Of a stretch of DNA of 64,000 bases, positions 1 to 37,912 are shown in pieces (position 1 is the first letter of the stretch; each line of letters begins with the position of its first letter). The notes beneath the pieces were generated by a model that was not told the origin of the DNA, made no database searches, and worked only from the letters and a program-made list of their open reading frames with translations. Source of the stretch: Callorhinchus milii (Eukaryota); assembly GCF_018977255.1 (NCBI RefSeq), contig NW_024704742.1:121398001-121462000 (forward strand), written 5' to 3'. The position numbers and the translations under genes were made by a program.

Positions 1-2490
1 GTATATTCCATAAAGTGCTTTGAGACATCTCGATGACGTGATAAGACGCTATATCAAATGCAAGGATTATTATTGTGTTATTGTAGTTAGATCACTCAGT
101 AGAGGTAGTTTCAAAGTGTTTTTCAGTCATGGCTCAGCCAGACCAATAACACTGCCATATTATATTTGAATGGATATTACTTTTCTTAGTATATTTTAAC
201 TTCCCAAAATAACTATTTTCTGTAGGAGGTGGACACTGTGAATACCAGGTATTTCATTAAGCCATTTCTGAATTGCCTTATTAACTGTCCCAGTTGCACC
301 AATGGTTATAGGAACTATGATTGCCTTATACTGCTACATGCACATGCATTCAATTTCTAGGTCAACGTCCTTCCAGATCTTCTCTAGTTCCTGATTTCAT
401 ACGTATGCACTTGTGAGTCGAAGATTATTGTGACGTTACCTTTTGATGACACTATTGCTGGTTGATGTCATTTGTCTTTACGTCAATATTATTAGTATAT
501 TAATAATTTACTTTATGGCTGTTTGTAGGACATGATTGTGTGCAAATTGGATACAAATACACATACTTCACAGTAAAATCGTGTGAAGCACTCTGACACC
601 GTTCAATGACATAAGGCTTATTTGTAACACAATTCCTCCCAAGTCAAATAGTCTGTCCAACCCTCCTCCCTCCAGACTCGCACATAAAAAATAACTTGGG
701 TAAAAGTACCAGTGGGAGTTCAGCCAGATTGACCTGCTATTACCTTCAGGTGCTGAAAGAACGACAGTCAGTAACGTATCAAGTGAAGCTATCATTTGAT
801 CCAAACTTACTTCTATAAGGTAAAAGATTTTAATATGAACATGAAAAAGGTCAGATCACAAGATCAAAAGGTTTGATATTCATCACACAGCATCACCACC
901 AAAAGCAGTTCACCTTCTGGGGGCTCAGGCAGCCCCCACAGCTCTATTTTTCACTGTTTTTCCCCCCACTCGTATCTATACCAAAGAACCTCAACTAACT
1001 AATTTCTAGAACAACTCATCTCAGTAGCTATTGTGAACAGTTTAGTGCGGTCATGCACCCTCATTCTGCTGCAGACTGAAAAGCACAGCGAGTTAAGGCA
1101 TTGCTGCAGTTTCAATGGTTAAGACGTCTTTTGACACATTAGCAAACTGAAGCAAAAATACAGACTGATTGAAAGCTTACATATGCAGTATTTAAAGAAA
1201 CACTGTATAGCAGAACATTGATTATCCATACCTTAAAATTGGTGGATAATTCCAAGTTGCACTGCAGTTCTCAATATCCAGTTATTCTTAATATAATCAT
1301 CAGCTCAAATTCCTGGATTTGGGCTCATTATTGCTAATTTAGGGAATGATTGCTGCAGTAATGTACAGTCATTTAGACTAAATTACTGACGCCTGAGTAA
1401 CACCCCCTTTGTGGGCGTTTTGCCCACCAAATACAGTCACTACTTTCCAATATATCATATGAAGCGCTTTGAGATGTCTCAGTGACGTGATAAGGCACTA
1501 AATCAAATGCAAGGATCATCATTACTATTATTATAATTGAGGTCCCAGGTAAAATTGAGATTCCAGGTACAAGAGAGAATCAGAGACATGTTATTGGCAC
1601 TGAAGATCATTTCCCACAGTGACAAGTTATTTAATGGTTAATAACACTAAAGTGTATGCAGTGAATATCTCATTATTCAGATATCATTGTGTGTGACATC
1701 CCCTGTTGTGTGAATGTCATACGAGGTACATCTACAGCCTACCACATTACAGTTAACGCCGTACACTATACAACGTCTAAAAAGGAAGAAGTATTCAGAA
1801 TTCTAGATTGGAGGCAAGCACGATGATAAGCTTTTATTTGGGGGATAAAACCTTACAATAGAAAACAAATCTATGTAATCAGTTGCAGGGTGTCCATTCA
1901 TTCAACTGTTCTTCTGAATGGAGCAAAGAGAACAAAGCTACTTGAAGCCATTTCCTCGTGCATAGATCTACTTTCATTTGCCATATACCATTCATATTAT
2001 AGAATCTCACAATTTCAGATTGGAGCCAAAGTCTGATGTGAATTAGCAATGAAAGATGGCTTTTGTAAATAGCCAGACTCGTAAATACACCAGGACAAGA
2101 GGCAAATTACCTGAATTTTCAGCACATTAATTCAGTAAATGAGCTTCCGCTTTATCTGATCAGCTGACTCTTGTGAGGGTTTAATATACTGACAGGCTCC
2201 ACTGCATACTTCCAATTAACGTCAGAGTCAGTCAAGCAATCCCCATGCATTTCTAATGGAAAAAAAGTTTCAGCTATTTCAAAGCCTGTCAAAGTCATTC
2301 ACCTTCAGTAAGATTCATGTGTTTACTGCACAGCATGTGGGTGTGAAGAATGAGACTGCTCTCTTCAGTTTGACACTTCAAATTTGGCCAAAGCAAATTC
2401 ATTCTATAACCACGGCGAACAAGGAAAATTTTTTATTTTAATTACATAAATTTCTTCAAAAAAGACTGAAAATGTATTTGTTTTCCTAAC

Positions 2491-2605
2491 CGGGACTAAA
2501 AGCGAGCCACTCAACACAGTCATCCACGGGACCAAAGAGACTGTCCTCAAATACAGGTATTGTGTTCTTGTCAAACCTCTTGCCTGGAATCCAATCAGCA
2601 TTCAT
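2491..2605 (-). CDS. ZSWIM6: Candidate alternative first coding exon (exon 1b) of ZSWIM6: MNADWIPGKRFDKNTIPVFEDSLFGPVDDCVEWLAFSP(G)
   Basis: ATG at 2605-2603 with G at -3. 38 codons + 1 nt end at CCC G|GTTAGG (GT at 2490-2489), the same phase-1 split Gly as exon 1. It is the first ATG downstream of a TATA/Inr pair, and the sequence is non-repetitive. Confidence 0.55.
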
Positions 2606-2725
2606 ATCTAATCTCTGCCTAATTCTGTTATTACACTTTTTGTTTAAAAAAAGGCAATAGTTAATTAGATGTGGACAATACTGAAGATTATGTACAATAA
2701 TATTCAAGAATCTGGTGAAATGAAC

Positions 2726-2823
2726 AACTGACTTAATTCTGTCCAATCGCTCTCATTTATAGCACTGCAAAAATTTAATTTTGCCCCCATCTGAGAGCTA
2801 TCATAGAAAACTCCTCCGCCCAC
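2726..2823 (-). promoter_or_regulatory. Candidate intronic core promoter: GC box, TATA box and initiator
   Basis: Minus strand: GTGGGCGGAGGAG (2823-2811), TATAAAT (2761-2755) and TCAGTT Inr with A at 2729. The TATA box starts 32 nt upstream of the putative +1. Confidence 0.5.
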
Positions 2824-3321
2824 AAGAACATCGCTCAATGTTTTTGCAGGGTAACAACATCTAGCCACTGTTGCCTATAGGCTTGGTTAGAGAAAGCTAG
2901 GCCAGAGCAGCATAACCTGTACCTTCAGAGGTTTACATAGCATTGGAAGAACAGACGATTAACAAGGCAACGCTAAAAACATTAAACTTAGACAGGCCTT
3001 GTTCTGAGAGTCCTGATCCAACCTCATTTCCTGGCAAGATACCTGTGCATTTATAAGGATTCAGCTACACAATTAAGTAATCAGGTTAAATCCCTTTGGA
3101 GAAAATGCAGCCTCTACCACATTTACATTTCTTCATTGCATGGAGGAGAAACTGAGGCCTTTTCAAGGATCTTTAAATTTGACCTTTTTTGGTGCAAGTT
3201 CATGGCTTGGAATCAGCAACAAAAAAATAACCTTGCATCATCATTGGCTCAACAACTGTCAGCCATGGACATGCTTCCAACCAAGGATTTCCTTCAGCTT
3301 CTAAAGCTATAATTTAATATA

Positions 3322-3476
3322 AACAACTGTTTGTGAGACACTGCTGTGCGTAATTGGCTGCCGTGTCTTGCCCACAAAATGTACATTCAATTCAGTTTAC
3401 AGTATATTCTGTGAAGCGCTTTGAGACGTCTAGAAGACATGAAAAGCGCTCTATAAATTGCAAGGATTATTATTAT
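3322..3476 (+). mobile_element. 3' half of the tRNA-derived SINE with (ATT)n tail
   Basis: CTGTTTGTG...GCTGTGCG.AATTGGCTGCCG...GTGAAGCGCTTTGAGACGTC...TGCAAGGATTATTATT matches the full copies at 58913 and 59678. Confidence 0.9.
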
Positions 3477-3479
3477 ACT

Positions 3480-4690
3480 TCACCTTCCTCTCCTGCCACT
3501 CCCTTTACGAACCCCTCCAATCGGGTTTCCGTGCTGCCGGCAGCAAGAAACAGCCCTGGTCAAGGTGACAAATGACATTCTGTCCATCTGAGACCAGGGC
3601 TCTCTCTGCCTTCTCGACCTCTCTGCTGCCTTTGACACTGTGGACCACTCTATCCTCCTCCACCTCCTCTCCTCTCACCTAAACCTTCAAGGTTCTGTCC
3701 TTGAATGGTTCAGATCCTATCTCACACCGACTCTACTTTGTCTCCACAAATGGTGACATCCTCCCTCTTGGTGACATCATCTACAGACATGGGGTCAACT
3801 TCCACATGTAGCAGATGACACCTAACTATCTCTCTGCCACCACCCTCGACCCCAGGACCACTGATGTCCTGACAGACTGCCTGTCAGACTTCAAGTCTAG
3901 GCCAAGGCTCTCCTGATTGGCTTGTGTCTGTGCACCTCAGGCACTGGCAGCATCAGTATCCTTAGATGCACACACCACCTCACCAAGCCAGTCAGGAACC
4001 TAGGCATCTTGTTCAACCCTCAACTATCCTTTCTCCGCTACATCCGTGGCAGGACAAGCTCTGCCTTCCCCCACCTCCTCAACATTGCCCGACTCCGCTA
4101 CTACCTCACCCTCAGGCCACCGAAACTCTCGTACATGTCTTCATTACAACCAGGTTCAAGTATGCCAACGCCCCGCTTGTCGGCCTTCCCAACTCTTCCC
4201 TCCACAAGCTGCATATCATCCAGAACTCTGCAGCTCATGTCCTCTCCCACATTGGGCTCCGTGACACCATCACACCCACCCTCGCCCGGCTCAACTGGCT
4301 CCCCATCCCTCAGAGGATCAAGTTGAAAATTCTCGTCCTACCTTCAAGTCCTCGCATGACGTTGCCCCCTCCTACCTGCTATCCCATTATCAACCTGTCC
4401 GCTTCCTCTGCTCAACAGGCTCCGGCCTACTCCATGTCCCCCATCCGGCCCACCTACACCATCGGTGGTCAAGCCTTCAGCCTCGCTGCCCCCACCCTCT
4501 GGAACTCCATCCCACATTCCCTTTGCCTCACTCCCTTCTTTGCTACCTTCAAAGCATGCCTCAAGACCCTCCTCTTTGACCGTGCCTTCAGCCACCATTC
4601 CACCCCGCACCCCCCCCCCGGGTCCTAATCCCTGACTGTTGGAACGTACTCCCAATGTGAAAGGCACTTTACAAATGTAGTTTTGTATTG
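3480..4690 (+). mobile_element. L2-clade LINE, 5'-truncated and degenerate (RT domain, C-terminus and 3' UTR)
   Basis: Encodes RT motifs QSGFR and [13 protein letters not shown], and L2 C-terminal motifs (ETLVHVFITTRF.YAN, IQNSAA..L, ITP.LARLNWLPI.QRI..KI, AP.LWNSIP, FK..LKT.LF). Frameshifted. Confidence 0.92.
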
Positions 4691-7600: not shown

Positions 7601-7884
7601 AATGAATTAACAACTTATGCCTTTGCCATGAAAGAAATGTCAACAACAACTTGTATTTATATATCCCCTTAATGCAGGGTAGTGTTTTGGAGTCTAAGCA
7701 TTGAATGCAACAGATTAGAAGTGAAAATTATTATTTATACAGGTAAATGCAGCACTAATTTGCACCATTAAGATTCTGTGATCTGGATTTAAATCGACCT
7801 ACCAGTAATGGATGCAAATTGAATTGGTCAGTCTTCTCCCATTTCCCAACTGCTCTACCAGAAATTGCACAATTATTCACAATT

Positions 7885-8171
7885 CACCCATGAAATACAG
7901 AGTCAATTCACTTTACAGTACAATCTGTGAAACACTTTGAGACATATCAACGATGTAATAAAGTGCTATATCAAATGCAAGGATTATTATTATATAATTA
8001 TTGGTCATTCAATCCACAACTGTTTGTGGGATACTGCTTTGCGCAATTGGCTGCTGCATTTCGCCCACAAAATATACAGTCAATTCACTTCATACTATAT
8101 TCTGTCAAGTGCTTTGAGACGTCTTGAAGACGCGATAAGGCGCTGTATCAAATGCAAGGATTATTATTATA
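7885..8171 (+). mobile_element. Two tandem 3'-partial SINE copies
   Basis: Two consecutive TCAAATGCAAGGATTATTATT tails (~7990 and ~8165), each preceded by SINE body sequence. Confidence 0.88.
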
Positions 8172-8746
8172 ATTCAGTATGAAATACCAACCTCATTTCC
8201 ATATGATAACTGGAGTAGGATGTGAATACCAATCAACACTGGTGCAATAGGGGGTATTTTTCTGGTGATGTTAAGGTGTACTATAATAATCTTAGCAATT
8301 GATATAGCACCTTGTCACATCATTGAGACATCTTAGTGGTTCCCAGGAAGTACTGTAAAGTACCCGAAAGTTTTATTGGGGTAGAAAACAAAATGACAAA
8401 TCCGCATCCGCTCCCCACAACCCACCCACCCCATAAATGCAACAAAAAGGTAGAGCAATCTTGTTAAACAACAGCGTTATTTACCTTGGTTAAAAGAATA
8501 AAAGCCAGTGTTGCTGTCATTTGACTCAATCGTTAATTCAATGTATACACCAGCAAAATTTAAGACACTGCTGGATGAACTGGAGGCTGTTCATTTCTGA
8601 ACAGTTGGAAGTTTGCTCCTGGTTCAATAACATCACTGAGCAGACAATGTCCATTTCATCAGTTTTATTGCTCGGACATTTTGGGGGGGCGATAAGAGGG
8701 TTGTAGATTCAATATACCCCTAAATCAACATAACGGCTCCCAAGTC

Positions 8747-8836
8747 TGACCTTGATCCCTCCAATATGATTGGCTCGGAATTACAAGTGATTGGCTGTCA
8801 ATCACATCGGACGCTGAACCTGACCTTGGTTGACCT
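8747..8836. promoter_or_regulatory. Candidate intronic enhancer/promoter with nuclear-receptor, NF-Y and PBX-TALE motifs
   Basis: TGACCTTGA at 8747. CCAAT/ATTGG at 8761, 8769 and 8790. CTGTCAATCA (TGATTGACAG) at 8795-8804. TGAACC-TGACCT-tggt-TGACCT at 8815-8836. Confidence 0.5.
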
Positions 8837-10419
8837 CAGCCTGCAGAGGGGAAGCTTGAAGAGATAGAAATTGATTTTTCGGGAGCGTGCACTACACTAA
8901 AGCATATTAAAAAATGATAAAAGATGGTCTTTGTTCCTTGCGAAAATGAAGGTGAACTTTGTTTTTTGTTGAAATATTTGTCATTTTCAAAATTCACATC
9001 AAGTACACACAGACCTATTCAAAAGATTTGTACAAGTCTTGTGCCTGTCCTCTTACTGTAATACACTGAATTCAAAACAATGCCGTGCTCTACAGTTTCT
9101 TAACGTTAACATTAGTCTGTGTTGCCAATCCTTTAGTCTGCAAATATGAACCTGGATGGCAGTAATAGTTAAACAAATACAACAAAGACTCCATTGCACA
9201 TAACTAAGTTAGTACATCTACACTGAATTTGTACAAAATATGAAGGATAAAACCACAATCAGCTTCAAATATTTCAGAAGTTTGATTCAATCTGTCTGAA
9301 AGATAACGTGTACAATACTTCTGGCCCAAACAATAATATTTCACATGTATATGGCATCTTAGACATTGGGAGTTCTCGCAAACTGCTTCACACAACTGAA
9401 TGGGGATCTAAGTGAGCCGAGAGGTGGTGAAAGATAGCAAAAAGCACTGTCAAAGAGATGGGTGGATTTTGAAGGCAGAGAGGGAGGGAAAGAGATTGAA
9501 CCAAATGAATTTGCCACACTGTTCGGCCAACCTTGAAAAACAAATTTAACCCTTTTAATGAGCAATTCTCCTAGTGACAAACAAAAGTCTCCATTGCCAG
9601 ACCAGTTTTGATAGATCAGAAGTGGAGATGTATTGCAGACCAAGGTGGAGGACATTTGTCTTTCAGTCTCAATGCAGTCTGACACAAGAATAACGCAAAT
9701 TGTGTTTCACAACAGAAGTTTCAATGTTATCCAACATAAACTTTACACATCATTAAAGATTTACAAAATAGACAAAAATACATAGTAGAAAGAAGTAAAT
9801 ATATAGTGAGGCGGATTGAACCACGCAAGTTCATGCGTGATCGGGAATCTTTAATTACAGATGACCACAGCATTATTTCCTCGCTGTGCTTAAATGTAAT
9901 AAGATTAACTGACTTCTGGGAAGAGGGTTAATACAAGACTAACTTGAGACACTGGATTGTTTTCATTATGTTCTGCAATATTCTCGTGTTCCCCATCCCC
10001 TCAAAACAAGTCAGGGTGAAAAAGGGGTAGAATATTTATTTCACCCCCTTTCCCCCTCCCAAGTACAACAGATATAGCACTGACAAACTGGACAATTACA
10101 ATGTCTCTTCTTTTTTTCAAATAATCCTTGCATTCTGTATAGCGCCTTATCACATCTTCGATACTTCTCAAGGCACTTCACAGAATATACTGTAAAGTGA
10201 ATTGATGTAGTTGTGTCAGAAATATCACGATTCTAAAACACCTGCTCTTGTTATTTTTAAGCCAGTCTATTCCCTTCACTATTATTTATAGCATCTCCCT
10301 CATTTTTAACCTCCTACCAACCATTACATGAATGTGTTCACAAGTAGCAAGTACATCACTGCTTTGTTTAGGTTTACCAATGCTCCTTCGTTACGGTCAC
10401 TTGGAATTGGAAACGGGTG

Positions 10420-11370
10420 GCTTAATGAGCAAATGCACCGTGTGATGATACTGAACAACACAGAACAGGATGGTCTCGGGTTAAATCATTGGTTTCTAGG
10501 AATTAGCAGATCCCCAATCGGGCAGCAATTACAGCAAAAATGCTTACATTTTATATACTTCTTTTCACGTTGGGAGGATGTCTAAAAGAGCTTCACAGGA
10601 TAAAAGTGGATAACAGGGTAAATTGATCACAGCGTAGTCTCAAGCCACTGTGTATTTTGCAAGTGAGCACAGCAGACAATTTGCAGACAGCAATGTCCCA
10701 CAAACAGCCATGAAGTGAATGACCAATTTTATTCGGAGAATTGTCAGCCAGGACAACAGGAGAAACTCCCTTCTCTTTTTGAATAGTGCCTTGAGATCTC
10801 TAACATCCACATGAATAGGCAGAAAGGACATTGGTTAACGTCTCATTGGAAGAATGGCACCTCCAACAATGCAGCACACCCTCAGCACTGCATTGGAGTG
10901 CTGACCAAGACTATACAAGTTCAATGACCTGACATGGGGCTTGAACCCACAATGTTTAGACGCAAAGGCAAGAGTGCTACAAACGTAGCCAGGCTGACAC
11001 ACAATTCTGATATTGATATGACACAATTATGAACTGCATTAAAGCTCAGGAGCCTTGGATCAGGGAGGAGGGTGTGGATTGGAGAGGACAAGCAAAGTTG
11101 GAAAGCCAAACAAGATTCTAGTTTGCTATCTCTGGTGACCCCTGCTGGAAAGAGATTGTGTGAACGGTAGATAAACACAGCACAGGCTCAGCTGTGCTGC
11201 TCACTTCCCCCTAATCAAACATCCTGACGTAACTCACTGCCTGGAATCACACATGAATAATGGCCATTTGGGCAAAGCACTAGAGGCTGCCAGCATTCAC
11301 AGAACCATACCACAGCATGAGGCAGGGCCTTCAGGAGAGAAAAGGGACAGAAAATTAGAAGGGAAAAAAA
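10420..11370 (+). mobile_element. Old AmnSINE2-like SINE split by nested insertions (5' part ~10420-10525, 3' part ~11030-11370)
   Basis: Motifs GTGACCCCTGCTGGAAAG, CTCACTGCCTGGAATCACACATGAATAATGGCCATTTGGGC and GCCTTCAGGAGAG resemble the recalled AmnSINE2 consensus. Related copies occur elsewhere in the window. Confidence 0.6.
10625..11000 (-). mobile_element. DeuSINE-like (SacSINE1/LmeSINE-type) tRNA SINE
   Basis: Minus strand has a tRNA-like head (GTAGCACTCTTGCC...GGGTTCAAGCCCC) and the Deu-type core GGAGGTGCC...ATGAGACGTTAA...AGATC.CA.GGCACTATTCAAAAAGAG..GGGAGTTTCTCC. Confidence 0.8.
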
Positions 11371-11739
11371 GGTTCACACTTCACAAAAGTGAACCTAGAT
11401 AAAAGCTATTCAGCATCGCACATCAGTTGACAGCTTTGAAACAAACTCATGATTTAAAAGAAATGCAACTAGCATTTGTCCTGCCATCCAGTGAACTAAC
11501 CCTAGGAGGTTTCCCACTCTGAACTCAAGACGTGTTAACTTGCATTGTCCCAATCAGCCCTCAGTCAAAGTACACGAATATAGCAATGAAACTGCACCAG
11601 CATTGGTAGATATTGTGAACAAGTAAACCAGCGAAAGGAAATTACTTTTAAAAGTGGCTTGCTTGTGTCAGTTTGTGGACTGTGGCTACTGTGTATTGGC
11701 TGAGTACTGGGACCATACTGTGTATATTACCAGTATTAA

Positions 11740-12100
11740 TGGAGTTCTGTAGCTCAGTGGTTGGAGCACTCGCCTCGCAAGCGAGAGACCTGGGTTCTAT
11801 TTCCAGCAAGGCGAAATGTTGGGTAAGTTTCCTTACTCCACACGTTCCTGTTTACCTAGCAGTAAGTAGGAACCCGGTTGTTAGTTGATTGGCAAATCAC
11901 TTTTCCAGGAATAATAATCCTTCAAAAAAAACTAATAATTTGGTCACTAAATCCACGACTGTTTGTGGGACACTGCTGTGTGCAAGTGGCTTCCGTGTTT
12001 TGCCCACAAATACAGTCAATTCACTTTACAGTATATTCTGTGAAGTGCGTTGAATCATCTACAAGACACAAAAGGTGCTATATCAAATCCAAGGATTATT
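11740..12100 (+). mobile_element. Full-length tRNA-derived SINE, long form
   Basis: A box TAGCTCAGTGG, B-box-like GGTTCTATTTCC, extra central segment CCTGTTTACCTAGCAGTAAGTAGGAACCCGGTTGTTAGTTGATTGGC, shared 3' tail. Confidence 0.9.
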
Positions 12101-13594: not shown

Positions 13595-14061
13595 GGTATC
13601 AGATACTCAAGAACCTGTAATACCACATGCTAAATGAAAAATAATCTAGACATGTTACTTACCTAGTAACCAGATGTACAAACAAGATACTCAGACTTGT
13701 TCACTAAAAACTCACCTAACCCCAATAGTACAAACTACTATTAGATACAAACTACTATTTTACAGTGCTGGAACACAGTCGGGTTGGCTAGACTGCATTC
13801 TTGAGACTCTGCAGTCTGAGAATCTGAGAATTACAGTATTTCAGTGCACAGAAAACCATGGGTACCAGTATGGGTGAACACATAATGCACTGTTTTTTCA
13901 CATGTTTGATTGATTGGTAATCCAGTGCACAATACAAGATACAAGCTATGCATATATATTATATATACACATTCACACACACACACACACGAGTATTCCT
14001 ATTATATATGTTTTTTTTTTCGATTAGCATGTGGCATTACAGGTTCTTGAGTATCAGGTAC
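13595..14061. mobile_element. Candidate MITE / non-autonomous DNA transposon
   Basis: GATACTCAAGAACCTGTAATACCACATGCTA (13602-13632) is a 30/31 reverse-complement match to 14025-14055, extending imperfectly to ~45 bp. The interior is non-coding. Confidence 0.6.
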
Positions 14062-14133
14062 TATTGTTGAGGAAGAAGAGCATCGCCACTTGCAACTTTT
14101 GAATAACAGCAGATGAATGAGAGACTTTCATAT

Positions 14134-14445
14134 TATAATAATAATAATCCTTGCATTTGATATAGCGCTTTTCACGTCAGGAGGACGTCCCAAAGCGCTT
14201 CGCAGAACACACTAAATTAATTGACTGTATATTTGTGGGCGAACGAGGCAGCCAATTGCACACAGCAATGTCCCACAAACAGTCTTGGATTGAAAATGAC
14301 AAATTTATTATTGTTTTTGGAGGGATTATTATTAGGCTCTGTGTGGAGTAAGGAAACTTGCCCAAGGTTTCGCACTGCCTGGAATTGAACTCAGGTCTCT
14401 CGCTTGCAAAGCGAGTGCTCTAACCACTGAGCTACAGGACTCCAC
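14134..14445 (-). mobile_element. Full-length tRNA(Ala)-like SINE, short form
   Basis: Head GTGGAGTCCTGTAGCTCAGTGGTTAGAGCACTCGCTTTGCAAGCGAGAGACCTGAGTTCAATTCC; (ATT)n tail. Confidence 0.93.
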
Positions 14446-14624
14446 GTATTGTAAATCAAGTTCTGGTTCCAAAAAATGTAGTTATAATACTGAATGCACT
14501 TGGGGACACCCACCACTGAAGCACCCAGTGTTCGATGAGAAGTGCATCGAGATCCCCAGATGAGTCTGGCAACACCACAAGAACGTCATCTGCAACTAGT
14601 AACACAATTCTATCAAAAATGCCA

Positions 14625-14815
14625 AATAATAATCCTTGTATTTGATATAGCGCTTTTCACATCTTCTAGACGTCTCAAAGCACTTCGCAGAATATACCGT
14701 AAAGTGAATTGACTGTATATTTGTGGGCAAAATGCGGCAGCCAATTGCGCACAGCAGTGTCCCACAAACAGTCGTGGATTGAAAATGACCAATTTATTAT
14801 TGTTTTTTGTTTTTG
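14625..14815 (-). mobile_element. 3' half SINE copy
   Basis: Same body and tail as the adjacent full copy. Confidence 0.88.
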
Positions 14816-15544
14816 GACTAATCTGTCCGTCTCTCTCAATGCCATCAAATACATGCATCATGAATAAGAGTACATCAAATAAGGTGAGTCACAGTGGACA
14901 ACTTTGGCTGATGGCTTTTTTGAGTGGGAGAAGCTAAATGAGTCTCCCATAAACCCATCAAAAAATTGATGAACCTAATGTAGGTGGGTTTCCCCAGAGC
15001 TTTGACATTCTTGGATCTCACACAAAGTCACAAACTGGCGCACAAAAACAGAATCCAACATTTTATCCCTGATTATACCACGGGTCTCCAAAGCATCATA
15101 TATACACATCATAAATACTTGGAACACTTTAGTGGTGGTGAGAGTCAGAACCACAGAGAGAACACATGGAGACAGGTTAGGGATAGAAAGGGAAATGGAC
15201 AGTAAATGACAGCGAGAAAGGCAGAGATATGGAGACGAAGATTTGAGCACACAGATTTAAATTACAACATCTATCCTATCACCCACCCTTCGTAATATAG
15301 TAAAGGGGACAGTGTTTATTATTCGGTTTTCAGTATCCGTTTGTATGACATCAAGCTCTTGGCCCCCCAGTATGCAACCTTTTGTCACCAATCATCATCC
15401 GAACCCGAACACCAGCAAATGACTCATGGCCACCAATCATGGGCCGATTGAAAGACTCCCGCCAGCACTGTGAGATCACATCCAATACGACTTCCTTGCC
15501 CCATCAACACCCTGCAGATAAAGCCCTAAACAGGTAGGGTGGTC

Positions 15545-15685
15545 ACAGCTGGACAAGGATCTGTCTGCAGAGGAAAGATGCAAAAGGGTTTGGGGAATAG
15601 AATAGTATGGGATGGTTGACATCATGAAGGAGCAAACACCAACACAAAAAATTGGGCCAAATGGCCTCTTACATTTCTACAGTTT
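15545..15685 (+). mobile_element. CR1-like LINE 3' end remnant
   Basis: Terminal TTGGGCCAAATGGCCTC motif, typical of CR1 3' UTR ends. Confidence 0.5.
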
Positions 15686-17689
15686 ACACTTCTGGATTAA
15701 CAAGGTCAAAGTGTTACTTCTCCCCATATTATATACTGTATTACACAATGGAACTGGACCAAAAACACTGAATGGCTACGAGGACAGAGACCTGCCAACT
15801 GTTCACTGAGCTTTATTAGTTTGTTGTAAAAGCAGCGCAGCAATAAATAAAGCAAAGCTCTGATCTGCTGGAATGAGAAGCAGTGCAGTATTAGAAGAAA
15901 ATGCTTAGTGCACCACCTGATCATTCAAATAGACAATATTGCAACAGACAGTGAATGCTATGCCAAAACACTTTTTTCAGTAACCCATAATCTCATCCGC
16001 TACGAGTGAGACTTGAGGAGGAATGTTTTGCGTACTTATAAACGCTATATATCATCGTCAGGTACAGACACGCCAGGGATGGATACTCAGGAAGTGGCCT
16101 GGTCCTATTCACTACTACAAACCTAATGCAATGTAGACATTAGGAAACAATTTAATTTGTAATAATTTACATGTTTTTCATATTTGCAATATTGTTAGCT
16201 AAAGTTTATTTTTATATAAATATTGCCCTTGAGGAGTGGCTTGTCATCATTTGATTGCCTTGCCAACAATTATATAACAATTTAGAAACGCAGCGTAAAA
16301 AGGTACCAAGCTGTTAGCAAAACACCAGTTTGACAAGTCATAACCAATATTAGCTGGAGCTCTTCCAGGCATAAAAACAACCTTTCAATCTATATAGTCA
16401 TAATAAATGCTTCTTTAAAGAAATGTAAAAGGTGCATAGACAGATGTCACTGTGTTGTATATGTGGGAAAATTGGTGGGCATTTTCCCACATTCATTTCT
16501 CCTGAATAATTCCATTATACAAATCCTAACAGATTAATAGCATTCCAATGACATATTTAACAGGCTCTTGAAGGATGGAAAAATAGTACTTGGTTTACTT
16601 ACACCCCCCCCCCCGCCCCATCACATTTAAACACACACTTGCTCTTGAAACACCGTCCCCTTTCACCAAGTACTGTATTCTCATCTTTTATAACCCTCAC
16701 ATGATCGATCTATCTCACTTATGGAGTTCAGCTCATCAGAGCTGCACTGGAATAAGGACAACGGGTGAGGAGGCTGAGTAAAGGAGCGAAGAAGCCGAAC
16801 GTTTAAGCTCACAGAATTTTGGCAATCAGTGCAAACATTCCTCGGCTAGTTTGTATTATCACAACCTTTCACTCCGAGCTCAGCCCATCTTCAAAAAAAA
16901 CTCTGCTCAGCTGAGGGCCAAATATTCCCTGCAGCAGAGTCTCTGAGATCCAAAAAAAAAAGAAAGCTGCCAGGATTTCTCCTCCAAACCCTTTTTTTTT
17001 GGGTTTCTCCAAAAAAAAAAAAATTATTTAAAACCCTTGACATCGTTCTCACCGAAGAGGAGCTACGAAAGCTCGCCTCCGTCTGCTGGAAGATTGCATC
17101 TTTTATTTATCGCCCCTTGGCTTATTTTCACAGTGAATTCCTGGCTAAATGCAATCAGCCAAGAACCCTCCCTTTACGCGCTCCTGTCATTCTTGATCGG
17201 TTGCATGCGGAGAATCAAGCGCAAAAAAATGCTCATCAAAGCCAACAAACAGAATGGCTGGCCACCACTTCGGCGTTTCTCTCCCTATAAAAAGGCTGCA
17301 AAAAAAAAAATATATAATAATAATAATAACACTGATGATAAACTGGCCAGAATTAAAGCAGACGTGTGTGTGTAAAAAAAACACCACCACCACCACCACC
17401 ACCCCACACACTACCCGACGAGGAGAAGGGAAACGAGTCAGGAATTGGGAGACGTAGACCTGGGAGACAGAAAAGGGGGAGGGAGGGAGAGAGAGGAAAA
17501 TAAAAAAAACACCCCAAACACATTTACTGGGCGAAATCCCCTTTAGGCGGAAAGGGCACTGCGCCCAATGAGCCACTGGAAAATAAACGATCATTGCAGA
17601 AAATCACGTTTGCAGATCGCTTTAGAATTCAAATGACCCACAGTCCGGGGGGAGCCGACAGGAACACTCAAACTGGATCAGGGGACAGA

Positions 17690-18036
17690 AAGGAGGAGAG
17701 AGGGAGAGGGGGAGGGGGAGAGGGAGAGAGAGAGAGAGAGGGGGAGAGGGAGAGGGGGAGAGAGGGAGAGAGGGAGAGAGAGGGAGGGAGAGAGAGGGAG
17801 AGAGAGGGAGAGAGAGGGAGGGAGAGAGAGAGAGGGAGGGAGAGAGAGGGAGGGAGAGAGAGAGAGAGAGGGGGAGAGGGAGAGGGGGGGAGAGAGGGGA
17901 GAGAGGGAGAGAGGGGAGAGAGAGGGAGATAGAGGGAGATAGAGGGAGATAGAGGGAGAGAGAGGGGGGAGGGAGAGAGGGAGAGAGGGAGAGAGAGGGA
18001 GGGAGAGAGAGAGAGGGAGAGAGAGAGAGAGAGGGG

Positions 18037-18067
<31 letters not shown>

Positions 18068-18212
18068 GGGGGGAGAGGGAGAGAGGGAGAGAGAGGGAGA
18101 GAGAGAGGGGGAGGGAGAGAGGGAGAGGGGGAGGGAGAGGGAGAGAGAGAGGAGAGAGGGAGAGGGGGGGAGAGAGGGAGAGAGGGGGGGGGGGGGGGGG
18201 GAGAGGGAGAGG
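17690..18212. repeat. Homopurine G/A low-complexity tract (~520 bp)
   Basis: Almost exclusively G and A on the + strand (GGGAGA/GAGA mosaic). Confidence 0.95.
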
Positions 18213-18630
18213 GCCATTTGTGTTTGCAGGAAAACAGAAATCTGGGGAGACATTTGGCCACACGATCTCTTTTTTTTTCCCCTTTGGATGGATCCCCCCC
18301 TCTCTCTCTCTCTCTCCTCTTCTCTCTCTCACACTCTCTCTCTCTCTCTCTCATTCTTCGTGGAATGAAAGGCTCGCCCCAGCCAGTCAGTCTGTCACTG
18401 CCCTCCACATATTTCTCCCCCCAATGTCTCTAACAAGCATTGAAGAAAGCTCTATTGTCCGACGGTGGAGGGTGACAGAAACTGAAAAGAACAAATAATA
18501 AACATGAAAATGGGAACAAAGTAACGAAGCGGTGGGAAGGGGAAGGGAAGGGGAAGGGAATGCCTGACGGCTATTTGATATGCGCAATTGGCAAATATAA
18601 CAACCGGGGTCGCTTCCAACAAAAGCAAAG

Positions 18631-19025
18631 CCCCCCCCAACCCACCCACCCCTCACCCCACCCCCAACCACCCACCCTCACCCCCCAACCCACCCACCCC
18701 TCACCCCCCAACCCACCCACCCCCTCACCCCACCCCTCACCCCCCCAACCCACCCCACAAACCCATCCCTCACCCCCCCAACCACCCATCCCCTCACCCC
18801 CCCCCCACCACCCTCACCCCCCAACCCACCCACCCCTCACCCCACCCCCTCACCCCCCAACCCACCCACCCCTCACCCCCCAACCCACCCCCCTCACCCC
18901 CCAACCCACCCCCCCTCACCCCCAACCCACCCCCCTCACCCATCCCCCCTCACCCCCCCAACCCACCCCACAAACGCATCCACCCCTCATCCCCCAAACC
19001 ACCCCAACGCCATCACCATCCCACC
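18631..19025. repeat. C-rich degenerate minisatellite (~23-bp unit, CCCACCCACCCCTCACCCCCCAA)
   Basis: Reiterated unit is visible directly. Confidence 0.9.
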
Positions 19026-19734: not shown

Positions 19735-20572
19735 GCCTCCCTCCCTCCCTGCCTTGCCCTGCCTGTCCCCCTGCCTTGCCCTGCCTGTCCCCCTGCCTGT
19801 GCCCTGCCTGTCCCCCTGCCTTGCCCTGCCTGTCCCCCTGCCTCCCTTGCCCTGCCTGTCCTCCCTCCCTGCCTTGCCCTGCCTGTCCCCTGCCTGTCCC
19901 CCTGCCTCCCTTGCCCTGCCTGTCCCCCTGCCTCCCTTGCCCTGTCTGTCCCCCTGCCTCCCTTGCCCTGCCCTCCCTCCCTGTCCTGCCCCCCTCCCTC
20001 CCTGTCCTGCCCCCCTCCCTCCCTGTCCTGCCCCCCTCCCTCCCTGTCCTGCCCCCCCTCCCTCCCTGTCCTGCCCCCCCTCCCTCCCTGTCCTGCCCCC
20101 CTCCCTCCCTGTCCTGCCCTCCCTCCCTCCCTGTCCTGCCCCCCTCCCTCCCTGTCCTGCCCTCCCTCCCTCCCTGTCCTGCCCTCCCTCCCTCCCTGTC
20201 CTGCCCCCCTCCCTCCCTGTCCTGCCCCCCTCCCTCCCTGTCCTGCCCCCTCCCTCCCTGTCCTGCCCCCTCCCTCCCTGTCCTGCCCTCCCTCCCTGTC
20301 CTGCCTGCCCCCTCCCTCCCTGTCCTGCCCTCCCTCCCTGTCCTGCCTGCCCCCTCCCTCCCTGTCCTGCCTGCCCCCCTCCCTCCCTGTCCTGCCTGCC
20401 CCCCTCCCTCCCTGTCCTGCCCCCTCCCTCCCTGTCCTGCCCTCCCTCCCTGTCCTGCCCTCCCTCCCTGTCCTGCCTGCCCCCTCCCTCCCTGTCCTGC
20501 CTTGCCCTGCCTGTCCAGCCTTGCCCCCCTCCCTCCCTGCCTGTCCTGCCCCCCTTCCTGCCTGTCTGTCCC
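19735..20572. repeat. C-rich minisatellite (~20-24-bp units, CCCTGTCCTGCCCCCTCCCT and GCCTTGCCCTGCCTGTCCCCCT variants)
   Basis: About 840 bp of tandem units with no A on the + strand for most of the length. Explains the spurious ~300-aa ORFs. Confidence 0.95.
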
Positions 20573-20684
20573 TTTAACATAAAGGCTGTATTGTGCGCTC
20601 CTGCCTTCACCGTGTTTGCTCTTTAAATTCCTGACGCGGTCACATCAACCATTATCTGGTTGGCGTCGGGGGGTCGGGTCCTCA

Positions 20685-21191
<507 letters not shown>

Positions 21192-21238
21192 TTACAATGA
21201 GGGCGCGCCTCGGCTGCGGCAAAAAAAGGTCAGGCGCT

Positions 21239-21658
21239 CCTAATATGGCGGCGAGTGGGGAGGGGGGGGGGGAGAGAGGGCGTCGGCGGACTGTGTGATG
21301 TCGCCGCACAAGGCCACCGCGGCCTTATATGGAGCGGGAGGGGCCGGTTCCGAACCCCCCCCCACCCACCCGCCCTGTGATGCCGCCGCAGAACCACCAC
21401 CACCGCCCGCCCACCCGCTCCTTGTTTGGGGGGCGGCTCCGGCCGTAAAAGCCCCGCCCCCGTCCTTATATGGGAAGGGAGTGGGGTGGGGGGGCGTTCC
21501 CGAAGCCCTTAGAAGGCCGGTCTGTCCTTATATGGGAAGGGGAGGGCGGGGCCGCGCGGCCCCGAACGCCTTAAAAGGACCGTCCGTCCTTATTTGGAAC
21601 CGCACCAGCGGATCAGCGGCGACCCGCTTTGATCTCGTGGTTAAAGGGGCCGCCGCCC

Positions 21659-21692
<34 letters not shown>

Positions 21693-22036
21693 AGAGAGAG
21701 AGAGAGAGGAGTGCAATCTTGGCAGCTGTGAGAGCTGCAGCCGCCCCGCTTTACTCTAATAATAATACTGATCCTTGCGTTTGATGCAGCGCCTCATCAC
21801 GTCCAACCACTGGAGACACTGGCAACTTTTTTTTTGTCATGCGTGTGTATGTGCGCGTGTGTGCGTGTGCGTGAGGATTGTGTCTTGGCGTAAAAGGACG
21901 GACCAGCTGAACCTTATATGGGAGAGAGGAGAGAGAGAACGAACGAACGCACGCGAGGGGTTCCTGTTCCCGGACGCCGGGTTGAGTCGAGCCGGGCCGA
22001 GCACTTGTCGTGTTTTCTTTCCCTCCCCGTATAAGG
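21239..22036. promoter_or_regulatory. Cluster of CArG boxes (SRF binding sites)
   Basis: Perfect CC(A/T)6GG at 21239, 21323, 21464, 21526, 21569, 21588 and 21912. One-mismatch versions at 21420, 21507 and 22027. Confidence 0.85.
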
Positions 22037-24451
22037 GCGGCCGCTCCTTTTATTTAGCCGAGGGGGAGTGGAGAGGAATTTGGGGTGGGCTCCCGAGTGT
22101 ACGATGCCCTTTTACGAGGGAAGGAGGAAGGGAGGGGAGCCGGCGTCACACGACTCTTCATAACAAAAGGGCGCTCGGTGGTCAGGGCCAGGGCTGCCGG
22201 GCTTCCTGCTTCGGGGTTTTTTTTTAAGTCTTAAAGGGAAATGTGTTGTGTTCCCAAACACTGAAGGCGGTGACAGAAGGGCTTTTTGTACCCCTGCCCC
22301 TGGCGTTGTTTCTACTCGAGAGGCTTTGTGTTAGAGCTATGCCTCGAGTTGCTTTTATTTTTAAGTGCAATTTAGATGGTGCGCGGGGTTGGGCGGAAGG
22401 TGCTTTAAAGGGAAGTTTGCCCGGTTGCCAAATCATATGGCAGCCCCGGGTCGTGCTGGTTGAGAGAGGCTTTCCGTCAGAACCATGCCTCATGACGTGT
22501 TAACTCTTGCAGCGACTTGTTCCAAATCCAGTTGTAAACTTTCATGTTGATTAACTAACTCCCCCGAAGCAGGCCTCCCACACTGCCACCACCTCTCAAA
22601 ACGCCAGACCTCATCCAGCTTCTTCTTCGTGCTAAATCAGCCTGCAGATTGAATTATTGTCGAGTCTGAAACCCAAGACACTGGGTCGGTATTTATAATA
22701 ATCCTTGCATTTGATATAGCACCTTACCATGCTATTGAGACGTCTCAAAGAGCTTCACGGAATATACTGTAAAGTGAATTGACTGTGTATTTGTGACTCC
22801 AATACAACAATGCCTTGTTATGATTCAGATACCGGAAAACACTTGCAATGATCATATTTACCACTACTTCCCTGTCACTGCTTAAATCCAGTTTCCATAC
22901 ATTCCAGTAAAGATGTTGCAGAGCTGGGGAATTGAGTAAATGTTCACTGCCAAAAACAAAACCTAAGTTTACAGGGGCCTACGATGAAGATATTTTTATT
23001 CTTTCTGTTTGAATCCAGGATAAATTTAGGCCCTGATTACTACTGTATATTTGTTAGTCATCAGCTTTCACTCAGCGCTCAGTCTTTTCATGCCTGAATC
23101 ACTCACAGAATTGCAACAAACCTGAAAACACTAAAAAAAATCCTGGCAGCTGGTTGCACACGCTTTGAAGTTAAAGAGAGTTTCCATAAGGTCCAAAGAT
23201 TTTAAACTAAATTACAATGGTGTGTGCAGGTTTCCAAAGGGGAGAGGAAAATGCTAGGTTGGCGAGTCACTGCACAGATGCTATACCATACATGTCAATA
23301 TTTCCACTGGAAAAATACCTATTGGCATACAAGTCCAGGGAAGGGAAAGGGCATAGTTCCCTTGAGATTTTCTTCTGCATAAAACTTTTGTTTTCCTGCA
23401 TTTTGATGGATACTTTCAATTCAAATTCTGCCAGCTTCAAATGAATAGTTCGACAAGAACAGACTGCAGAAAATCCATGCTCCTGTGTCTGAGCTGCAAA
23501 TTTAATACTGATTCAATTTAACATATTCTTGACCCTATTTTCCTATAATGGATTAATCCTTGATAAACGTGCTGTGATTATATAGAGGATATTGTATGTC
23601 TGGCAATTGGATTCAGATGATATGAGAAACTATTGAGAGGAAAATTCGTATGGTTTGTTAGTCATCTGAATCTCGATATTAGATTACTCTCTTTAATCCT
23701 CTGTCACCCATCCAATATTTTTATATTGTATGGAGGCTTTTTGTTCTAACCTTAGCGAATGGCACCTTTTTTCCACTGTTGTTGAATGAGGACACAGTTT
23801 GACCCAGGAAGCTATGTTATTTTAAGTCATATAAGATTAAGTGAATCTTCATAAATTATCAGGTTCTTCCGATGGTGCATTACAAAGGAATTCATTGCGC
23901 TTCAGATGTCAAAATAGATAATCCTTTAATGTAGACATCCTCACACATCAAGTGCACTGACATACCTAGACTAAAACTGAACCATGCAGCCTTGCAAGTA
24001 TGTAGTAATCCTTGTGCCTTATCACATCAAAGACATCTCAAAGATAATTGTCAAGTGCAGTGATTGGTTTTGTAGGTGAATTTAGTAATGCAGAAATATA
24101 TTATTTCCACAAACAATGCAGTAAGTCATTTCAAAGATGCTCACCTCCAAGCTCAGATGACACAATGATGAGGTGATTCTTTTATAATTGCTGTAACAGG
24201 TTCAATCTCCATAAACCAGTTATTGAGTCAGTCAGGAACTCCCTCACATGGTAAAAGAAAGTGAACCATGGAGTCTTAAAAAATTCCCTCAGAACACACA
24301 TAAGATGACACTCCAATATAGCGCAAGGGTACTTTGCATTGTCAGAGGTTCTATTCTTCGGATGAGAGATTGGAAAATGTATTTCAGAATAAGATAAAAG
24401 AAAGAAAATTAATTCAGTTTCCTGTCTAGACTCTAATTAAAAGAATTTTAC

Positions 24452-27184: not shown

Positions 27185-27372
27185 ATTGCACACATCAGTG
27201 TCCCACAAACAGTCGTGGATTGAAGTGACCAATTTATTATTGTTTTTTTTGAGGGATTATTATCAGGCGTGTGGAGAAAGGAAACTTGCCCAAGGTTTCA
27301 CCCAACCAGGAATCAAACCCAGGTCTTTGGCTTGCAAAGCGAGTGCTCTAACCACCTAGCTACAGAACTCCA
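27185..27372 (-). mobile_element. Short-form tRNA SINE, 5' portion
   Basis: Head GGAGTTCTGTAGCTAGGTGGTTAGAGCACTCGCTTTGCAAGC on the minus strand. Confidence 0.88.
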
Positions 27373-36469: not shown

Positions 36470-37520
36470 AGCAACAACAACAAAATTACATTTGTAAAGC
36501 ACCTTTCACTTCAAGAGGAAGTCCCAAGTCGCTGAACAGTCAAGGCCCGAACATGGGGGGTAGGGTTGGGCTGAGAGAGGGTAGAGAGGGTAGGAAGGCA
36601 GCTGAAGGCACGGTCAAAAAGGAGGGTCTTGGGTTGTGCCTTGAAAGAGGCAAGAGAGGGAGCAAGGCAAAGGGATTGTGGGATGGAGTTCCAAAGAGTG
36701 GGGGCAGAGATGGTGAAAGCTTGACCGTTGATGGGAGGGTGGATCGGGAGACCTGGAGCAGGTTGGAGCCTGCTGAGCGGAGGGAGCGGACAGGTTGGTA
36801 GAGGGTCAGCAAGTCAGAGATGTAGGAGGGGGCGAGGCCGTGGAGCTGGGCAAGGGTGGGGGTGATGAGGTCAGGGAGCCCGGTGCGGTAGAGGACACGA
36901 GCTGCAGCATTCGGGATGATCTGCAGCTTATGGAGGGAAGAGTTGGGGAGGCCAACAAGTTTCCATAGTCGAGCCTTGAAGTGACGAATGCACGTATGAG
37001 GGTTTCAGCGGCCTGAGGGCTGAGGCAGTGGCGGAGTTGGGCAATGTTGCAGAGGTGGGGGAAGGCCGAGCGGGTCACGGCACAGATATGGGGAAGAAAG
37101 CACAGTTGAGGGTCAAACAAGATGCCCAGGTTCCTGACTGACTTGGTGAGATGGAGTGTACAAACGTGGATGCTGTTGCTGCCAGTGCCCGAGGTGCGGA
37201 GGCGCTGGCGTGAGGCAATCAGGAGGGCCTCGGTCTTAATGACATTTAGTTGTAGGAAGTTGGCTCTTATTCAGGACTTGATGTCTGACAGACAGTCTAT
37301 CAGGACATCAGTTGTCCTAGAATCGAGGGTGGAGGCAGAGAGATAGCGTCATCCGTGTACATGTGGAAGTTGACCCCATGTCTGCGGATTTTGTCACCAA
37401 GTGGGAGCATGTAGAGGCTGAAGAGGAGGGGACCGAGGTCAGAGCCCTGAGTAACACCGCACAAGAGTGTGAGCAGCACAGAAACCCGATTGGAGGGGCT
37501 CATGAAGGGAGCGGTAGGGG
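36470..37520 (-). mobile_element. L2 LINE, 5'-truncated with an internal deletion
   Basis: RT motifs [22 protein letters not shown]...HMYTDD, C-terminal L2 motifs and a (TTG)n tail. Confidence 0.93.
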
Positions 37521-37571
37521 TAAATCTATCAGTTGAGATAGATTGACATTCCTTGTCAACAATCCATGCAT

Positions 37572-37912
37572 TTAATATAGCTCCTGATCACATTGTTGAG
37601 GCAGCTCAAAGTGCTTCACAGGATATATTGTAAAGTGGATGGACCGTGTATTTTGTGGGCAAAACGCGGCAGCCAATTGCGTGCAGCAATGTCCCATAAA
37701 GAGTCGTGGATTGAGTGACAAATTTATTATTACATTTTTTTTAAGGGATATATACCCCCGGAAAAGTAATCCACCAATTGATGTGTTCCTAGATATTGCT
37801 AGGTAAACAGAGGCATGTGGAGTAAGGAAACCTGCCCCGGGGGTTTCAGCCTGTCCAGGAACTGGGTCCTCGCCCTTGCTAGGCGAACGCACTAACCACT
37901 ACGCTGCAGGAC
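37572..37912 (-). mobile_element. Long-form tRNA SINE
   Basis: Head GTCCTGCAGCGTAGTGGTTAGTGCG plus the CTGTTTACCTAGCAAT central segment and body. Confidence 0.85.

What the first reader, a model, noticed from the sequence alone, without database searches (positions are those of the whole stretch)
21239..22036. Dense CArG array with 62-bp periodicity in the ZSWIM6 promoter
Seven perfect CC(A/T)6GG boxes fall within ~680 bp; at uniform base composition the rate is about 1 per 16 kb. Four are the identical CCTTATATGG. Boxes at 21464, 21526 and 21588 are exactly 62 bp apart (about six helical turns). The last two are each preceded 19 bp earlier by a second box (21507 CCTTAGAAGG, 21569 CCTTAAAAGG), and degenerate partners (CGTAAAAG) precede 21464 and 21912. 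Flanks are also similar (GTCCTTATATGGGAAGGG), indicating tandem duplication of a paired-CArG module. Established: multi-CArG promoters characterise SRF immediate-early targets such as EGR1. Inference: ZSWIM6 is strongly SRF/MRTF- or TCF-responsive through a phased array.
Basis: partly seen in the sequence, partly recalled or inferred. Interest (0 to 1): 0.7.

Follow-up and report, generated by a model that had tools for sequence, protein, structure and literature searches.

The report
Multiplied SRF site pair at ZSWIM6
The promoter of a ZSWIM6-type gene in a cartilaginous fish carries seven perfect binding words for the regulator SRF, likely multiplied from a single two-word module that bony fish still have, but the regular 62-base spacing is not kept in a relative and is likely only a by-product of duplication.

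Summary
The cluster is real: 7 perfect CC(A/T)6GG boxes within 683 bp of a CpG-island promoter, against at most 3 per 700 bp in 300 shuffles. They lie 117-799 bp upstream of exon 1 of a ZSWIM4/5/6-family gene, most likely ZSWIM6, in a cartilaginous fish. The 62-bp period is a local tandem duplication, not a conserved phase: spacings read 56 and 51 bp in a relative's contig, and the first spacing is 84 here, 93 in another individual and about 70 in two related species. What is conserved is smaller: a strong box, 9 bp, then a weaker CC-N6-GG (19 bp start to start). It recurs in the window and stands once, at the same place (about -120 from ATG), in 2 of 2 informative teleost zswim6 promoters. 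Two published mouse ChIP-seq tables put a very strong SRF peak at -86/-90 of Zswim6, on the level of Actb and Egr1. They show no Elk-1, ELK4 or MKL co-peak and only 1.6-fold TPA induction. Verdict: a high-occupancy SRF promoter of a known kind; 'phased' and 'strongly inducible' are not supported.

The parts
20751..21122 (-). Coding exon 1 of a ZSWIM4/5/6-family gene, most likely ZSWIM6 (ATG at 21122; splice donor after LQV-G); the rest of the gene lies outside the window
   Evidence: 116 of 123 residues identical to a bamboo-shark 'ZSWIM6-like' peptide; tblastn finds no other exon in the window
20501..22500 (.). CpG island covering exon 1 and the array
   Evidence: GC 54-67%, CpG observed/expected 0.66-1.03
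21155..21160 (-). ACTTCC (ETS-type core; motif name recalled), 38 bp before the ATG; likely near the transcription start
   Evidence: same core at -32/-31 in two teleost promoters
21220..21248 (-). Module 1: proximal perfect box (21239-21248; same letters as the Fos box, overlapping a YY1-type core, consensus recalled) plus one-mismatch partner at 19 bp (21220-21229). Positional counterpart of the teleost module
   Evidence: no listed change in the box in organisms B and C, but the partner's A-run is 3-4 letters longer there
21304..21332 (-). Module 2: perfect box 21323-21332 plus CC-N6-GG partner at 19 bp (three mismatches)
   Evidence: box without listed change in three other runs
21420..21429 (-). 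One-mismatch box without partner (decayed unit)
21443..21473 (-). Module 3: perfect box 21464-21473; decayed partner at 21 bp
21507..21535 (-). Module 4: perfect box 21526-21535 plus one-mismatch partner at 19 bp
   Evidence: gap-free in run X17
21569..21597 (-). Module 5: two perfect boxes 19 bp apart (21569, 21588)
   Evidence: gap-free in run X17
21460..21597 (.). 62-bp tandem repeat (2.2 copies) that carries modules 3-5; boxes 19 of 20 identical between units, spacers 27 of 42
21888..21921 (-). Module 6: perfect box 21912-21921; decayed partner at 24 bp
22027..22055 (-). Module 7: degenerate pair 19 bp apart (one and two mismatches)

Best explanation
This is the promoter of a gene that is likely ZSWIM6, where one module (a strong CArG box, 9 bp, a weaker box) also present in teleosts was likely copied in tandem several times, giving a cluster predicted to bind SRF at high occupancy without needing a fixed helical phase. 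Shown: the boxes, their tandem-repeat frame, the 19-bp pair in the window and in two teleost promoters, and changing distances between modules. Shown in mouse by published tables: a very strong SRF peak at the Zswim6 start and modest TPA induction. Inferred: SRF dimers bind the strong boxes in this fish; the weak partner is a second, lower-affinity SRF site; unequal crossing-over or slippage in the G/C-rich spacers made the copies; selection kept the boxes and let the spacers drift. The likely output is steady SRF-supported expression with modest signal tuning, not an EGR1-like burst.
For: Cluster far beyond chance. All six lead boxes point the same way and sit in repeat families. Between the two full 62-bp units the box columns are 19 of 20 identical and the others 27 of 42 (Fisher p 0.008; partly circular, since boxes were picked by consensus). 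In organisms B and C boxes 21239 and 21323 show no listed change while likeness ends at 21346; in run X17 all 11 gap letters fall between modules 4 and 5. Both teleost contigs with upstream DNA hold one perfect box at -120/-118 and a partner at +19; these are the only two CC-N6-GG in about 560 bp of each, inside a run of 49 aligned positions identical in both. The offset +19 has the fewest mismatches of 45 offsets in the window and in the fish. Mouse MEFs: SRF summit -90 from the Zswim6 start, 1665 reads, against Actb 1758, Egr1 1437, Vcl promoter 405, Srf 353, Fos promoter 161 (PMC5179500 Table S3). Mouse macrophages: peak at -86, row 14 of 5027, second promoter peak after Actb and above Egr1 in the tag-ordered rows seen (PMC4023608 file S8).
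Against: No binding or expression data for this species. The mouse promoter sequence could not be read, so it is not known how many boxes lie under the mouse peak. Exon 1 alone does not place the gene in a tree and no ZSWIM4 sequence was in hand; mouse Zswim4 also has a promoter SRF peak, but a weak one (91 reads). The two teleost contigs count as one lineage. Upstream-extended peptides of a gecko and of a bird-like sequence allow one box at -112/-111 but no pair 19 bp apart, so the pair may be lost in amniotes. The partner of module 1 is damaged in organisms B and C. The X17 evidence is one contig of depth 5.4, and 5 of its 10 substitutions are not listed. Zswim6 was not found in an SRF-knockout hippocampus paper or its one supplement.
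Confidence: 0.68

Rival explanations
1. The boxes form a helically phased array in which SRF complexes six turns apart touch and cooperate, as plant MADS tetramers do, giving strong inducibility.
For: Window spacings are 8.0, 13.4, 5.9, 5.9 and 30.9 turns. Six-turn spacing gives phase-dependent cooperativity for SEP3 in vitro (PMC2615621 passages). MRTF dimerises through a leucine zipper (PMC8199744 legend).
Against: Two equal 62-bp steps follow from one tandem repeat. Chance of 3 of 4 independent spacings near whole turns is 0.08, and 15% of null arrays reach the best phase score. Spacings read 56 and 51 bp (5.3, 4.9 turns) in X17; box 1 to box 2 is 93 bp in another individual and about 70 bp in B and C. 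Teleosts have one module and no repeat over it. SEP3 cooperativity needs its K3 region; that SRF lacks a K domain is recalled.
Confidence: 0.08
2. The functional unit is the 19-bp pair: two SRF dimers bind side by side, and this geometry gives very high, largely cofactor-independent occupancy. The number of modules sets the dose.
For: Pattern box-9-CC-N6-GG occurs at 3 places in the window (0.02 matches expected) and once in each of 2 teleost promoters. No gap falls inside the pairs in X17. The mouse peak is top-rank yet has no Elk-1 peak in MEFs and is called only in the SRF sets, not the MKL or ELK4 sets, in macrophages.
Against: Partners are decayed or shifted in modules 2, 3 and 6 and in module 1 of B and C. 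No pair is compatible with the two sauropsid peptides, so the mouse peak may not rest on a pair. The mouse peak is TCF-enhanced and the gene is classed TCF-dependent. Absence of a cofactor peak can be a sensitivity limit. Co-occupancy was not tested.
Confidence: 0.2
3. Only the proximal module works; the upstream copies are neutral leftovers of slippage in an unstable G/C-rich promoter.
For: The region is rich in G-runs and microsatellites. One module is all that the teleost promoters have.
Against: Boxes are far better kept than spacers between the copies. Box 21323 has no listed change in three other runs, and X17 keeps the same run of units despite 11 gap letters.
Confidence: 0.15
4. The gene is the cartilaginous-fish ZSWIM4, not ZSWIM6, so the strong mouse Zswim6 peak does not apply directly.
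For: Exon 1 shares QQVEERF, PRNERE and SSFNY with shark proteins named ZSWIM5 and is about equally far from them (93-96 of 124) and from bony-vertebrate ZSWIM6 (93-100 of 124); the tree is open at this fork. No full-length shark orthologue was among the 120 hits listed.
Against: The N-terminal [11 protein letters not shown] and the C-terminal [13 protein letters not shown] follow ZSWIM6. The nearest named peptide is 'ZSWIM6-like', and the same shark has a separate ZSWIM5. Intron 1 exceeds 20.7 kb while the whole mouse Zswim4 spans 26 kb and Zswim6 166 kb. No Pfam hit to a neighbouring gene in 142 upstream frames. The promoter module matches teleost zswim6 in place and form.
Confidence: 0.15

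Closest known systems
EGR1 multi-SRE promoter (TCF-SRF immediate-early type)
   Same: Several CArG boxes within a few hundred bases of the start; SRF peak of like height in mouse (1437 against 1665 reads).
   Different: Egr1 has Elk-1 and ELK4 co-peaks, Zswim6 has none. Only two ETS-type cores were found within 900 bp, at -38 and -844. Mouse induction is 1.6-fold. The array here arose as a visible tandem repeat and is not shared with teleosts.
Tandem-CArG promoters (DUSP5, SRF itself)
   Same: Two neighbouring boxes of unequal strength; such tandem elements are described for few genes (PMC4687125 passages).
   Different: DUSP5's boxes are contiguous and thought to exclude each other; here a 9-bp linker separates them, the pair is shared by a cartilaginous fish and teleosts, and it is repeated up to seven times.
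c-fos serum response element
   Same: The proximal box reads CCATATTAGG in the gene's direction, the same letters as the Fos box (PMC4789231 table).
   Different: No ETS-type core directly beside it by the cores scanned; many more boxes.
Plant MADS 'floral quartet' sites (SEP3)
   Same: CArG boxes about six helical turns apart (63 bp).
   Different: The spacing is not kept here, and the tetramerising region is a plant MIKC feature (absence in SRF recalled).
Actb and smooth-muscle alpha-actin promoters (MRTF-SRF type)
   Same: Top-rank SRF peak; basal expression of mouse Zswim6 rises 1.8-fold when TCFs are lost, as MRTF targets do.
   Different: No MKL co-peak in macrophages, unlike Actb; Zswim6 is absent from the gene-set file that lists the SRF_Direct_Near and MRTF_stringent overlaps, where Zswim4 is present.

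Membership tests
SRF-bound CArG promoter | Perfect CC(A/T)6GG near the start of a gene, above chance | tested here: met
SRF-bound CArG promoter | Box conserved in related species | tested here: met
   proximal boxes in organisms B, C; one box at -120/-118 in 2 of 2 informative teleost contigs
SRF-bound CArG promoter | SRF occupancy | tested here: inconclusive
   Met for mouse Zswim6 in two published tables; no data for this species, and orthology is likely, not settled
SRF-bound CArG promoter | Activity lost on box mutation or SRF loss | not testable with these tools
   Bench test; Zswim6 not found in one SRF-knockout paper and its supplement
EGR1-type TCF-SRF immediate-early promoter | ETS sites beside the boxes and TCF occupancy | tested here: not met
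   cores only at -38 and -844 (weak test, TCF needs only GGA); no Elk-1 or ELK4 peak at mouse Zswim6
EGR1-type TCF-SRF immediate-early promoter | Strong rapid induction | tested here: not met
   Mouse: 7705 to 12056 reads with TPA (1.6-fold), classed induced, TCF-dependent, direct; Arc in the same table rises 358 to 4475. Other cell types and this species untested
MRTF-SRF target promoter | MRTF occupancy or dependence | tested here: inconclusive
   Basal level up in TCF-null cells; no MKL co-peak; supplements of PMC4018493 could not be read
Helically phased MADS array | Whole-turn spacing kept across species | tested here: not met
ZSWIM6 orthologue | Exon-1 signature closer to ZSWIM6 than to ZSWIM5 or ZSWIM4 | tested here: inconclusive
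   nearest named peptide ZSWIM6-like, terminal motifs fit, tree open, no ZSWIM4 sequence in hand
ZSWIM6 orthologue | Synteny | not testable with these tools
   No genome held; no neighbouring gene found by Pfam in 142 frames of 62 residues or more upstream

The most novel reading that the evidence does not exclude
A 19-bp strong-plus-weak CArG pair is a composite element older than the split of cartilaginous and bony fish. It loads two SRF dimers side by side and makes ZSWIM6 one of the most occupied SRF sites in the genome while recruiting little TCF or MRTF, a third mode of SRF action. This fish lineage multiplied it up to seven times as a dose control on a brain and face development gene.
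Probability: 0.15. Interest if true: 0.68.

Novelty: new member of a known kind. Interest (0 to 1): 0.42.

Why it matters
ZSWIM6 is a neurodevelopmental and craniofacial disease gene (PMC11740973 passages; PMC5025718 listing), and loss of Srf in neural crest gives a midfacial cleft (PMC8806183 passages). The SRF link sits unremarked in supplementary tables: Zswim is not named in the main texts of PMC4018493 or PMC5179500, and SRF and CArG do not occur in PMC11740973. The locus adds sequence-level support for an old SRF-ZSWIM6 link and offers a natural one-copy against seven-copy comparison for testing how CArG pairs and their spacing set SRF occupancy. Multi-CArG promoters and site gain by tandem duplication are known kinds, so the surprise is moderate.

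Tried and rejected
No whole genome is held for this window, so other exons and synteny could not be read. Scans for related loci found nothing in viral contigs (0 of 50 candidate stretches) or genome contigs (0 of 30); metagenome contigs gave 3 loci of 142 stretches, one (L003) without upstream DNA. The run search: no RNA holder listed on record; no RNA run was laid, so the transcription start is not measured. Only 21000-21658 was laid, so modules 6 and 7 were not compared between species; lack of cover of B and C beyond 21346 proves nothing. blastn of the teleost promoters against the window found no alignment at the promoter (4 weak hits elsewhere, E 0.1-1): the likeness is motif, spacing and position, not alignable sequence. 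Rfam found only five tRNA-like matches and no microRNA cluster. The exon-1 tree (31 rows picked by hand from the hits; no ZSWIM4) left the key fork open. Back-translation of ten upstream-extended peptides found no compatible 19-bp pair; only two amniote ones reach past -112. Paper searches ZSWIM6+SRF (14 papers), ZSWIM4+SRF (9), Zswim6+promoter (30 of 97 listed) and ZSWIM+CArG (20 of 79 listed, swamped by 'cargo') showed no title or abstract start on this promoter; I saw listings only, and most subscription papers are not held. Supplements of PMC5364370 and PMC8806183 held no Zswim6 row; those of PMC4018493 could not be read and may bear on serum and MRTF dependence. Rejected: chance cluster; assembly artefact (another individual's contig spans 21000-21527 with 3 other letters); transposon origin (no such evidence in the stretch); a coding role for the + strand frames over the array (not tested by search, no reason seen).

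Full report
Observation. The seven perfect boxes stand at 21239, 21323, 21464, 21526, 21569, 21588 and 21912. The window as a whole is not enriched (13 against 8.2), but the cluster is: mean 0.06 and maximum 2 in 5000 local shuffles, and at most 3 per 700 bp in 300 whole-window shuffles. One-mismatch boxes lie at 21220, 21420, 21507 and 22027. The region is a CpG island. Tandem Repeats Finder reports a 62-bp unit in 2.2 copies at 21460-21597, and the repeat search puts five boxes with their flanks in one family.

The gene. The minus strand carries a 124-residue exon from 21122 to 20751. It hits ZSWIM5 and ZSWIM6 proteins at up to 72%, and no other exon lies in the window. Its nearest relatives are a cluster holding a bamboo-shark 'ZSWIM6-like' protein and a whale-shark peptide, each 116 of 123 identical; the same bamboo shark has a separate ZSWIM5. 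So the source is a cartilaginous fish. An exon-1 tree leaves the fork open and no ZSWIM4 was in hand. Terminal motifs, an intron 1 above 20.7 kb and an upstream stretch without a Pfam-detectable neighbour (1 reverse-transcriptase hit in 142 frames) favour ZSWIM6; I put it at about 0.8.

Anatomy. Read in the gene's direction, six lead boxes start at -126, -210, -351, -413, -475 and -799 from the ATG, all in the same orientation. Each is followed by a weaker box: at +19 for -126 (1 mismatch), -210 (3, CC and GG intact), -413 (1) and -475 (0), at +21 for -351 and at +24 for -799; a seventh, degenerate pair lies at -933/-914. Summed over the six, +19 has the fewest mismatches of the 45 offsets tried. 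The unit of duplication is thus a 29-bp pair plus a G/C-rich spacer. Between the two full 62-bp units, boxes are 19 of 20 identical and the rest 27 of 42 (p 0.008, partly circular). The proximal box has the letters of the Fos box and overlaps a YY1-type core (consensus recalled).

Close relatives. Contigs of four runs were laid on 21000-21658. X1, of the same species, spans 21000-21527 with 3 other letters, 9 letters put in within the G-run and 1 at 21354: box 1 to box 2 becomes 93 bp instead of 84, and the first 62-bp step is kept. Organisms B and C (X11, X16) fit 21000-21346 with 18 other letters each and no listed change in boxes 21239 and 21323. Their pieces are 10 and 11 letters shorter despite 4 and 3 added at 21220, so 14 letters are missing; the depth bins place them within 21242-21307, which makes box 1 to box 2 about 70 bp (inferred, the gap itself is not listed). 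The added A's spoil the partner of module 1. One 338-letter contig of X17 (depth 5.4, no species label) fits 21323-21346 without change, then 21514-21537 with one change, then 21507-21604 with 10 other letters and 11 gap letters, all at 21542-21561. Its lead boxes fall at record positions 13, 143, 199 and 250, giving spacings of 130, 56 and 51 against 141, 62 and 62. Both pairs stay gap-free. Five of its ten substitutions are not listed, so the exact box letters are not fully seen.

Phase. The window's spacings are 8.0, 13.4, 5.9, 5.9 and 30.9 turns, which looks orderly but is not significant once the two 62s are counted as one event (0.08; 15% of null arrays do as well). The relatives give 8.9, 6.7, 12.4, 5.3 and 4.9 turns. 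Phase-dependent cooperativity at six turns is real for plant SEP3 and needs its K3 region (PMC2615621 passages); nothing here calls for it.

Distant relatives. Of 3 loci from metagenome contigs, 2 carry upstream DNA of teleost-type zswim6. Each has one perfect box, at -120 and -118, and a two-mismatch CC-N6-GG exactly 19 bp further on; these are the only two CC-N6-GG in about 560 bp, and they lie in a run of 49 aligned positions identical in both. The 19-bp figure came from the finding before I saw the fish. An ACTTCC core lies at -32/-31, against -38 in the window. No repeat covers the fish module, and the promoters do not align with the window by blastn. The two fish count as one lineage. 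Against a pan-vertebrate pair: upstream-extended peptides of a gecko and a bird-like sequence allow one box at -112/-111 but no pair at 19 bp (indirect).

Mouse data. PMC5179500 (I saw passages, three supplement searches and the first parts of Tables S1 and S3) lists an SRF peak with summit -90 from the Zswim6 start: 1665 reads in wild-type MEFs and 696 in TCF-null cells, no Elk-1 peak; Actb 1758, Egr1 1437, Vcl promoter 405, Srf 353, Fos promoter 161, Zswim4 91. RNA rises from 7705 to 12056 with TPA, and from 13705 to 16642 in TCF-null cells; the gene is classed as induced, TCF-dependent and direct, with a raised baseline in the null. PMC4023608 (supplement search and first part of file S8) lists the peak at -86 in row 14 of 5027; the 25 rows seen run down by tag count, and after seven mitochondrial and three intergenic rows it is second to Actb and above Egr1. 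It was called in the two SRF sets only, where Actb also has MKL and Egr1 also has ELK4 (the table's title leaves unclear which experiment gave the tag counts). If the start lies 30-40 bases before the ATG, as the shared ACTTCC suggests (inferred), the mouse summit falls where the fish and window proximal modules are.

Mechanism. Most likely one strong-plus-weak module was ancestral to jawed vertebrates and was copied several times in this lineage, with the boxes kept and the spacers free. SRF would occupy the cluster heavily and support expression with modest tuning by ERK-TCF and Rho-MRTF signals. Binding in this species, use of the weak partner and any dose effect of copy number are untested.

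Comparison and novelty. It works like the EGR1, SRF and DUSP5 promoters in having several or tandem boxes (PMC4687125 passages; PMC516031 passages). It fails the EGR1-type tests of TCF occupancy and strong induction in the mouse data read, and fails the phased-array test. The searches (listings only) showed no paper on this promoter, and the scan's own notes had nothing on it. Other papers seen as passages only: PMC4018493, PMC10236294, PMC11740973, PMC4789231, PMC7925694, PMC4482243, PMC8199744, PMC8806183. Verdict: a new member of a known kind, with one worthwhile new detail, the 19-bp pair shared with teleosts. Interest 0.42.

Noticed in passing
window 19757-20566: A 21-22-bp C/T-rich minisatellite in about 37 copies begins some 185 bp into intron 1; with the (GA)n tract at 17690-18213 and a C/A-rich repeat at 18632-19004 it gives strong strand skews.
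   Followed up: no
window 11743-11814, 14370-14441, 27298-27369, 58917-58988, 59925-59996: Five 72-base tRNA-like Rfam matches, probably heads of tRNA-derived SINEs; decayed LINE-type reverse-transcriptase pieces are scattered, one with a Pfam RVT_1 hit at 37303-37587.
   Followed up: no
PMC5179500 Table S3; PMC4023608 file S8: Mouse Zswim4 also has a promoter SRF peak (-217, -196), much weaker, and Zswim5 has none nearby: the SRF link may predate the duplications that made the paralogues.
   Followed up: partly
P0005, P0044, P0054, P0063, P0079: Shark proteins named ZSWIM5 lack the exon-1 signature of bony-fish ZSWIM5 and do not group with it in the exon-1 tree; paralogue names in cartilaginous fish may need checking.
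   Followed up: partly
L001 394-413; L002 1364-1383: A spaced inverted TGTCAA/TTGACA pair just upstream of the CArG module is kept in both teleost promoters; not seen in the window's promoter on reading.
   Followed up: no
window 23542-23551: An eighth perfect box 1.6 kb beyond the array, outside the CpG island and within chance expectation.
   Followed up: no
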